The notes under the pieces: model-generated
The model's input: only the letters and a program-made list of their open reading frames with translations
Told to the model about the DNA's origin: nothing
Database searches by the model: none
Shown here: in pieces, positions 334 to 744 of the stretch
How positions within the stretch are numbered: the first letter of the stretch is position 1
How the letters are laid out: each line of letters begins with the position of its first letter
Assembly (NCBI GenBank): GCA_044892525.1
Contig: CM097885.1
Coordinates: 18,168,001-18,232,000 of the forward strand
Direction of reading: 5' to 3'
Length of the DNA stretch: 64,000 bases
DNA from: Schmidtea polychroa
Taxonomy: Eukaryota
Position numbers and translations under genes: made by a program

Positions 334-744
334 ATGTATATTGAAACACAAAAAGTTGTCATGGAGTAAGTTTTTTTATACTGTTTAATTTATTAAAGTA
401 GTTCTGTTCAGGTTAATCGAATTGGAAAACAAATATTGGGAAATGAATTTGTTGGAGTTTTTCCTCTTGATAAAATTCCATATTTGAGCAATAATCAAGC
501 AATAATCGTCAATACTCAATCGTCTCATCTTGGTGGAGAACATTGGATAGCTATATATATGAAACCTGGTAATATATTCGTGTTCGATCCTATGGGTTTT
601 TATTACCCAGCTTTGTTGATATCAAAACTACAAACAATGGGGAAACCTATCGTGTATAATAAAACTATGTTTCAAAATCCATTGACCCAAACATGTGGTC
701 AACATTGTTTAGCTTGGTTGTTGTATAAAAAATTTGATGTTTAA
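334..744 (+). CDS. Adenain-like cysteine maturation protease, two exons (predicted 36-nt intron 366-401)
   Basis: The ATG directly follows the MCP stop. GTAAGT…TAG intron removal gives MYIETQKVVMDSVQVNRIGKQILGNEFVGVFP. Catalytic motifs GEHW, VFDPMG and FQ…TCGQHC are present. Confidence 0.85.

What the first reader, a model, noticed from the sequence alone, without database searches (positions are those of the whole stretch)
334..744. 36-nt spliceosomal mini-intron in the viral maturation protease, conserved in two copies
Seen: in both copies (366-401 and 25544-25579) an exactly 36-nt GTAAGT…TAG segment with an in-frame TAA separates an ATG abutting the MCP stop from the catalytic exon. Substitutions between the copies cluster inside this segment while the splice signals are kept. 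Inference: protease production depends on splicing, which could serve as a late-gene switch.
Basis: partly seen in the sequence, partly recalled or inferred. Interest (0 to 1): 0.72.

Follow-up and report, generated by a model that had tools for sequence, protein, structure and literature searches.

The report
Ancient codon-2 intron in Polinton protease
The capsid-maturing protease gene of a virus-like jumping element (a Polinton) in an animal genome is cut right after its start codon by one short host-type intron that a whole branch of related elements inherited, although such core genes are usually described as intron-free; whether the intron regulates anything is not shown.

Summary
The 36-nt GTAAGT…TAG segment is in both copies and is very probably a real spliceosomal intron in a Polinton adenain-like protease gene. 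Of 38 related metagenome loci, 11 (44–59% identical) carry an intron at the same site and phase, 37–43 nt long, 7 of 11 not multiples of three. They form one clade on a capsid-protein tree (SH-aLRT 100); 26 other relatives lack it.

Three corrections. The start is ATG 361, five bases before the donor, not ATG 334, which lies inside a TATAAAT box that all 13 intron-bearing genes carry 31–46 nt upstream. The length of 36 is not conserved. The in-frame TAA is only part of the donor consensus.

No run on record as RNA was found, so splicing is not shown directly. The late-switch idea is unsupported: the protease shares its upstream box with the capsid genes, and the splice signals are canonical.

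Nine paper searches found no such report, but this scan noted intron-bearing Polintons before on other DNA (56 notes, at least 12 genomes, one including a protease). New variant of a known kind; interest 0.5.

The parts
1..333 (+). 3' end of major capsid protein gene, copy 1 (runs off the window start); stop TAA at 331-333
   Evidence: 95% identical to residues 298-407 of the copy-2 MCP
329..335 (+). TATAAAT box overlapping the MCP stop and ATG 334; putative promoter box of the protease gene, 31 nt before ATG 361
   Evidence: ATAAA[CT] lies 31-46 nt before the protease ATG in 13 of 13 intron-bearing genes; background 16 in 25,548 nt of MCP interior; function inferred
334..360 (+).
   Evidence: Relatives have -1 to +4 nt here in 9 of 10 measurable loci; weak context at 334, strong at 361
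361..365 (+). Coding part of exon 1: start ATG plus two bases
   Evidence: ATG-NN directly before the donor in 13 of 13; Met falls on profile position 1, where 73 of 171 profile-matched proteins start
366..401 (+). 36-nt phase-2 spliceosomal intron, GTAAGT…TAG, 17% GC; alternative in-frame AAG acceptor ends at 398
402..744 (+). Exon 2: adenain-like protease body; His 541-543, Asp 586-588, Gln 673-675, Cys 694-696; stop 742-744
   Evidence: PF00770; adenovirus proteinase 1avp, E 4.9e-5, catalytic columns aligned
743..748 (+). AATAAA overlapping the protease stop; putative poly(A) signal, possibly shared with the MCP mRNA
   Evidence: no AATAAA between MCP stop and exon 2
22665..34101 (+). Polinton copy 2: AGTAGT at the left, an AGTAGA… end on the minus strand at the right; internally deleted and degraded
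24288..25511 (+). Major capsid protein gene, copy 2, 407 aa, uninterrupted, with TATAAAC 41 nt before its ATG
   Evidence: model pLDDT 75.8; Foldseek top hits iridovirus, PBCV-1 and mavirus capsids, E 3e-16
25507..25513 (+). TATAAAT box, copy 2
25539..25543 (+). Coding part of exon 1, copy 2
25544..25579 (+). 36-nt intron, copy 2; site of most length variants among other copies of the family
25580..25922 (+). Exon 2, copy 2: protease body
23928..24224 (+). Small conserved gene between the minor-capsid-like gene and MCP (PW/core-protein-like label recalled), uninterrupted
27821..32500 (+). Protein-primed DNA polymerase B gene of copy 2, broken (frameshift, internal stop, foreign insertion)
   Evidence: PF03175

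Best explanation
A genuine major-class (U2-type) spliceosomal intron, gained once in codon 2 of the maturation-protease gene in the ancestor of one Polinton clade and inherited since. The gene is transcribed by host RNA polymerase II from its own (T)ATAAAY box at the end of the capsid gene (inferred). The first exon is only about 10 nt long and carries the start ATG (361) plus two bases (inferred from spacing). The host spliceosome removes the intron and joins ATG to the catalytic exon, giving a 115-aa protease with the usual family N-terminus (inferred from homology). Without splicing only a dipeptide is read (shown from sequence). Splicing is most likely constitutive; timing is set by the promoter box shared with the capsid genes. 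The intron persists because its signals are essential once present and a DNA-only element has no ready route to precise intron loss (general knowledge, recalled).
For: Same site and phase in 11 of 38 metagenome loci (7 families, 44-59% identical) plus the two window copies; lengths 36-43 nt, 7 of 11 not multiples of three; near-identical proteins differ in intron length (L009 41 vs L010 39; L002 38 vs L004 37). Donor +5 G in 11 of 13 and +6 T in 12 of 13, positions the search pattern did not require. 26 loci lack the intron and 20 of them have an in-frame ATG within -4 to +1 codons of the same column. One clade on the MCP tree: 10 intron rows against 19, SH-aLRT 100; protease tree 86/77. Length variants of other family copies: 6 of 8 listed indel rows between 24288 and 25922 fall in the 36 nt, none listed in exon 2. 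Exon 2 is under purifying selection (16 synonymous, 5 non-synonymous codons). Box 31-35 nt before the ATG in 12 of 13 and 46 in L014; in the window and L014 the box has moved onto the MCP stop and the spacer has grown to match. MCP and neighbouring genes carry the same box 32-44 nt upstream in most cases examined. The element's accessory gene has 45-49-nt GT-AG introns too.
Against: No spliced RNA was seen, so splicing, the transcription start and promoter function are all inferred. The first exon would be unusually short. No clear branch-point motif is shared. The protease tree support is below the starred level and a 53-row tree with protein-only rows was mostly unresolved. P0002/P0018 start M-N-S yet group with the window copies (99/94): spliced cDNA or intron loss, DNA not available. 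The box lies partly in MCP coding sequence, so protein constraint (Ile-Asn) can contribute to its conservation. Indels sit in a T-run, a mutational hotspot, and 2 of 14 indel rows were not shown. The protease is the only split gene among the five core genes examined, which fits a selected role as well as a frozen accident.
Confidence: 0.66

Rival explanations
1. Regulated or rate-limiting splicing: the intron is real, but splicing of the tiny cap-proximal exon is slow or stage-specific, so protease appears later or at a much lower level than capsid protein.
For: Unspliced RNA gives a dipeptide in 13 of 13. Only the protease is split among five core genes examined. Kept in 9 lineages at 46-71% pairwise identity. 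Box-to-ATG plus intron length (67-78 nt in 12 of 13) equals the box-to-ATG distance of the 12 nearest intronless relatives (70-78 nt), so promoter shift and intron gain look coupled. Maturation proteases are needed in few copies per particle (recalled for adenovirus).
Against: Canonical strong donor; the intron interior drifts at the neutral rate and shows no shared motif; the gene has its own box like the capsid genes; conservation is expected without function.
Confidence: 0.2
2. Position set by RNA surveillance: MCP mRNA runs through the protease gene to a shared poly(A) site, so only an intron within about 50 nt of the MCP stop escapes nonsense-mediated decay; codon 2 is a tolerated site, not a functional one. 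Compatible with the best explanation.
For: Junction lies 4-9 nt (9 loci), 32 nt (2 window copies) and 47 nt (L014) after the MCP stop, 12 of 12 measurable under 50; no AATAAA between MCP stop and exon 2.
Against: The short distance follows automatically from gene adjacency; only two lineages test it. Junction-dependent decay is weak or absent in several invertebrates (recalled). No transcript ends were seen.
Confidence: 0.09
3. No splicing: stop-codon read-through of the in-frame TAA, or translation from another start, makes the protease.
For: 36 is a multiple of three in both window copies; some copies have a stop-free unspliced frame from an ATG in the MCP tail (P0001, P0015; also L009, L014).
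Against: 7 of 11 relatives and other family copies have lengths that break the frame; the read-through peptides share no sequence; GT and AG are invariant; first Met in exon 2 lies after the catalytic His in the window.
Confidence: 0.03
4. Decay: the segment is an insertion that killed the gene in dead copies.
For: Copy 2 is a degraded element with a broken polymerase and a mostly deleted integrase.
Against: The segment predates divergence to about 55% protein identity, while catalytic His, Asp and Cys are kept in all 13 full-length intron-clade rows (L018 is cut short) and exon 2 shows purifying selection.
Confidence: 0.02

Closest known systems
Polintons/Mavericks of animals (vertebrate Mavericks, Barreat and Katzourakis PMC8097293; Caenorhabditis Mavericks, Widen et al. 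10.1101/2022.07.12.499685; adintoviruses, Starrett et al. PMC8502044; passages read)
   Same: Gene order minor capsid-like, PW-like, MCP, protease as in the vertebrate module; protein-primed PolB; AGT-type end; adenain-like protease; accessory genes with introns as in nematode cargo genes.
   Different: Those papers describe the core genes, protease included, as intronless (or do not mention splicing); here the protease has a clade-wide intron in codon 2.
Introner insertions in dinoflagellate eupolintoviral elements (Gozashti et al. PMC12166617; passages read)
   Same: Spliceosomal introns inside Polinton-like elements.
   Different: Those are mostly young, copy-specific insertions after integration, about 25% in coding regions, with no protease mention; this intron is old, inherited at one site, and has no recognisable shared interior.
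Adenovirus protease (adenain, PDB 1avp) and its L3 transcription unit
   Same: Same catalytic residues; protease gene directly follows the major capsid gene and depends on host splicing (recalled).
   Different: Adenovirus splices a non-coding leader to an acceptor upstream of an intact ORF (recalled); here the intron interrupts the ORF after the start codon and the gene seems to have its own promoter box.
Start-codon-proximal introns of cellular genes (fungal ribosomal-protein genes, microsporidian genes; recalled, not looked up)
   Same: Short intron within a few bases of the ATG behind a very short first exon.
   Different: Here it sits in a virus-like mobile element; regulation is not shown.

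Membership tests
U2-type spliceosomal intron | GT…AG ends with GTRAGT-like donor | tested here: met
   13 of 13 GT/AG; +5 G 11 of 13, +6 T 12 of 13; +1 to +4 were required by the search pattern
U2-type spliceosomal intron | Removal restores a homologous reading frame at a conserved phase, whatever the length | tested here: met
   Phase 2 in codon 2 in all; lengths 36-43; matches intronless relatives
U2-type spliceosomal intron | Branch-point motif | tested here: inconclusive
   YTRAY-like words at variable places, none in 4 of 13
U2-type spliceosomal intron | Spliced RNA observed | not testable with these tools
   No holder on record as RNA; only contigs could be laid
Adenain-like (C5) cysteine protease | His, Asp/Glu, Gln, Cys catalytic residues in order; profile match | tested here: met
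   PF00770 at or near cutoff (28.4 and 25.0 bits vs 21.3); 1avp alignment
Adenain-like (C5) cysteine protease | Proteolytic activity on virion precursors | not testable with these tools
   no assay
Polinton/Maverick | Double-jelly-roll major capsid protein | tested here: met
Polinton/Maverick | Protein-primed DNA polymerase B in the same element | tested here: met
   PF03175 at 29034-31982 (broken) and in L010
Polinton/Maverick | Retrovirus-like integrase | tested here: inconclusive
   Only a C-terminal chromodomain-like remnant at about 22790-22920 (label recalled, no profile hit obtained)
Polinton/Maverick | Packaging ATPase | not tested
   Not searched for specifically; none among the 21 ORFs scanned
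Polinton/Maverick | [quoted passage not shown] | tested here: inconclusive
   Each end motif occurs once only: copy 2 is deleted at the left; copy 1 runs off the window
Self-splicing group I/II intron or introner | Long structured RNA, or repeated near-identical intron family | tested here: not met
   36-43 nt, 9-25% GC, interiors unlike each other by inspection; no genome-wide repeat search possible

The most novel reading that the evidence does not exclude
One Polinton clade rewired its protease gene in a single step: the promoter box moved about 40 nt towards the start codon and a host-spliced intron of the same length was placed behind a roughly 10-nt first exon, so that the splicing of a cap-proximal micro-exon acts as a gate that sets protease dose or timing apart from capsid synthesis. 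This would be a post-transcriptional control of virion maturation in an element whose particles and life cycle have not been observed.
Probability: 0.2. Interest if true: 0.75.

Novelty: new variant of a known kind. Interest (0 to 1): 0.5.

Why it matters
Polinton core genes are treated as intronless, and large surveys use prokaryote-style gene callers on that assumption (PMC10120064, passage read). Here that assumption yields wrong or truncated N-termini for a whole clade (P0001, P0004-P0006, P0014, P0026, P0046 read through intron sequence). An intron kept across about 55% protein identity shows that these elements have long been transcribed in the nucleus and that the protease has stayed under selection, which supports a particle-forming stage. 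The junction gives a strand-specific, DNA-proof marker for expression of the morphogenesis module in a genome with very many copies. The intron is also a clean clade marker.

Tried and rejected
RNA evidence: no RNA holder listed. Contigs of three 'RNA?' guesses and one other run were laid on 24200-27000: no joint across the segment among the 15 of 81 joint rows shown (all from X7); all 7 X3 records are listed and none skips it; X2's depth there is accounted for by two unspliced contigs. This is no evidence either way: the runs may be DNA, and a first exon of about 10 nt would hardly be captured. No whole genome was held and the records behind L003, L010, L023 were not held, so no copy-by-copy census and no look at integrase or ATPase genes of the clade. 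Searches for more loci found nothing useful: protease alignment in genome contigs 0 of 27 candidates, in viral contigs 3 distant hits L039-L041, left out of all counts; MCP in viral contigs 0 of 20 and 0 of 30, in genome contigs 0 of 67. The 46-nt option (TTCAG at 411) was rejected: out of frame, no upstream ATG in that frame. A second intron before the integrase remnant was considered and rejected: the TTTAG there is coding. The 53-row tree did not resolve. Kapitonov and Jurka 2006 and the 2024 review by Koonin et al. were not held; Repbase entries could not be checked and may annotate such introns. Paper searches; none returned a report of an intron in a Polinton protease (listings seen; passages read in 12 papers; no supplements read, which may hold annotated maps). 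A sequence look-up in earlier findings gave one unrelated note. The host taxon was not determined.

Full report
What is there. The window is AT-rich animal DNA (an ETS-domain ORF and an acyl-CoA dehydrogenase gene with long introns) holding several Polinton/Maverick pieces. The capsid call was tested: the model of 24288-25508 (pLDDT 75.8) matches iridovirus, PBCV-1 and mavirus capsids (E 3e-16). The protease body matches PF00770 and adenovirus proteinase 1avp with His, Asp/Glu, Gln and Cys aligned. Copy 2 spans about 22665-34101 and is dead: left part deleted, polymerase broken.

The observation. The 36-nt GTAAGT…TAG segment and the in-frame TAA are present in both copies. The claimed clustering of substitutions shrinks from 11 to 6 events once gaps are allowed. 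This exceeds coding DNA (30 of 708, p 0.006) but not third codon positions (21 of 223, p 0.23), so the interior simply drifts. The TAA is the +2 to +4 part of a phase-2 GTRAG donor and is there, as TAA or TGA, in all 13 intron-bearing genes. Length 36 is not fixed: laid contigs show +T (33 contigs of X7), +TT (9) and other indels; 6 of the 8 listed indel rows in the capsid-protease stretch fall in these 36 nt (12 of 14 rows shown). P0001 and P0015 read as 37-nt copies that have also lost the upstream AAG.

Comparative test. Of 38 metagenome loci, 11 have ATG-NN|GTRA…AG|N at the homologous place, one (L008) has the AG but is cut by the contig end, and 26 have no such intron. The 11 fall into 7 families, 44-59% identical to the window; lengths are 37, 38, 39, 39, 39, 41, 41, 42, 43, 43, 43. 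The pattern's background is 29 of 127,800 window positions. Of the 26, 20 have an in-frame ATG within -4 to +1 codons of the same column and 6 have one nine codons up. On an MCP tree (29 of 34 loci with an MCP hit; 5 dropped as under 140 aa) the 10 intron rows form one clade, SH-aLRT 100, nested among intronless rows. The protease tree agrees at 86/77, unstarred. A larger tree with protein-only rows was unresolved. One gain is the simplest reading. MCP, the PW-like gene, the minor-capsid-like gene, the downstream 160-aa gene and the part of PolB seen show no intron-sized breaks in this clade (one split in the L014 downstream gene not followed up).

The start codon. Every relative has the ATG five bases before the donor, which is window position 361. 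That Met falls on profile position 1, the commonest start (73 of 171 proteins), and has a strong context, unlike 334. Earlier notes on this genome described a shared (T)ATAAAC box before capsid genes (unverified lead). Tested here: ATAAA[CT] lies 31-35 nt before the protease ATG in 12 of 13 intron-bearing genes and 46 nt in L014; 70-78 nt in the 12 nearest intronless loci; in 4 of 14 distant ones at scattered distances; background 16 in 25,548 nt. In the window the box is TATAAAT at 329-335, so ATG 334 is inside it and would lie upstream of the transcription start. In the window and L014 the box has moved onto the MCP stop and the spacer has lengthened (27 and 42 nt), which argues that the spacing matters. 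Box-to-ATG plus intron length is 67-78 nt in 12 of 13, the same as box-to-ATG in the intronless neighbours; I cannot explain this beyond noting that promoter shift and intron gain map to the same branch.

How it most likely works. Shown from sequence: unspliced RNA from ATG 361 encodes two residues; exon 2 has no usable Met before the catalytic His in the window; removal of the segment restores the family frame. Inferred: own promoter, first exon of about 10 nt, splicing by the host major spliceosome, constitutive. The element's accessory gene already carries 45-49-nt GT-AG introns in both copies. The late-switch reading stays possible (0.2) but nothing here points to regulation: canonical donor, neutral interior, shared promoter box. 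A surveillance constraint may explain the position: the junction is within 50 nt of the MCP stop in 12 of 12 measurable genes and no AATAAA intervenes, but this is weakly tested. Read-through and decay are contradicted by frame-breaking lengths and conserved catalytic residues.

Against my reading. No spliced RNA was seen (uninformative). Hosts of the window and of the related loci are unknown.

What is known. [quoted passage not shown] Caenorhabditis Mavericks: core genes intronless, cargo genes with introns (10.1101/2022.07.12.499685, passages). Nematode Polintons and adintoviruses: no mention of spliceosomal introns (10.1101/2023.08.22.554363 and PMC8502044, passages). Endogenous virophages: no introns (PMC8547959, passage). 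Introners occur in dinoflagellate elements, mostly as later insertions (PMC12166617, passages). Nine searches returned no report of this intron; Repbase, supplements and two key papers were out of reach. Within this scan, intron-bearing Polintons were noted 56 times in at least 12 genomes, one with a split protease (unchecked notes), so the general phenomenon recurs. What is particular here is a single, old, clade-defining intron in an otherwise unsplit morphogenesis module, tied to a promoter shift.

Verdict. Observation partly confirmed; interpretation partly supported. Intron real: about 0.93. Constitutive: about 0.66 overall. New variant of a known kind; interest 0.5.

Noticed in passing
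window 1253-1800 (+) and 26315-about 26990 (+): Small acidic accessory gene after the protease in both copies, 68% alike in DNA, with phase-1 GT-AG introns of 45-49 nt, a TATAAAC box upstream and hydrophobic-acidic words resembling SUMO-interacting motifs (label recalled). Copy 1 has a stop in its last exon.
   Followed up: partly
L011, L015-L017, L019-L024: In these intronless relatives the protease ATG lies 11-14 nt inside the MCP reading frame; in others stop and start overlap by one base.
   Followed up: partly
L001 2867-3343, L009, L010, L005, L007, L002, L012 and others: A conserved ORF of about 160 aa follows the protease in both intron-bearing and intronless relatives, has the same upstream box, no Pfam hit, and is absent from the window copies.
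   Followed up: partly
window 23928-24224 (+): Small basic protein before MCP with glycine-pair words (such as Q-S-G-G) that resemble adenain cleavage sites (recalled); a likely protease substrate.
   Followed up: no
window 29842-31238: Insertion with short inverted ends inside the polymerase gene of copy 2, probably a small DNA transposon.
   Followed up: no
window 60825-64000 (-) and 15296-15970 (+): Further polymerase B pieces of other Polinton families (68-75% DNA identity); a RING-finger ORF at 59947-60489 abuts the first.
   Followed up: no
window 7269-9948: 700-bp inverted repeat (97%) around ORFs including a GIY-YIG domain at 9388-9708; Penelope-like retroelement is a guess from memory.
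   Followed up: no
window 11021-13697 and 18560-21235: 2.7-kb duplication at 99% identity holding an ETS-domain ORF.
   Followed up: no
window 2761-4518 (+); 38626-48016 (+): Intronless 585-aa amidase ORF; acyl-CoA dehydrogenase gene with multi-kb introns and general YAG acceptors.
   Followed up: no
P0012, P0008: Database proteins in which part of this protease is fused to tubulin-like or histone-like sequence; probably assembly chimeras.
   Followed up: no
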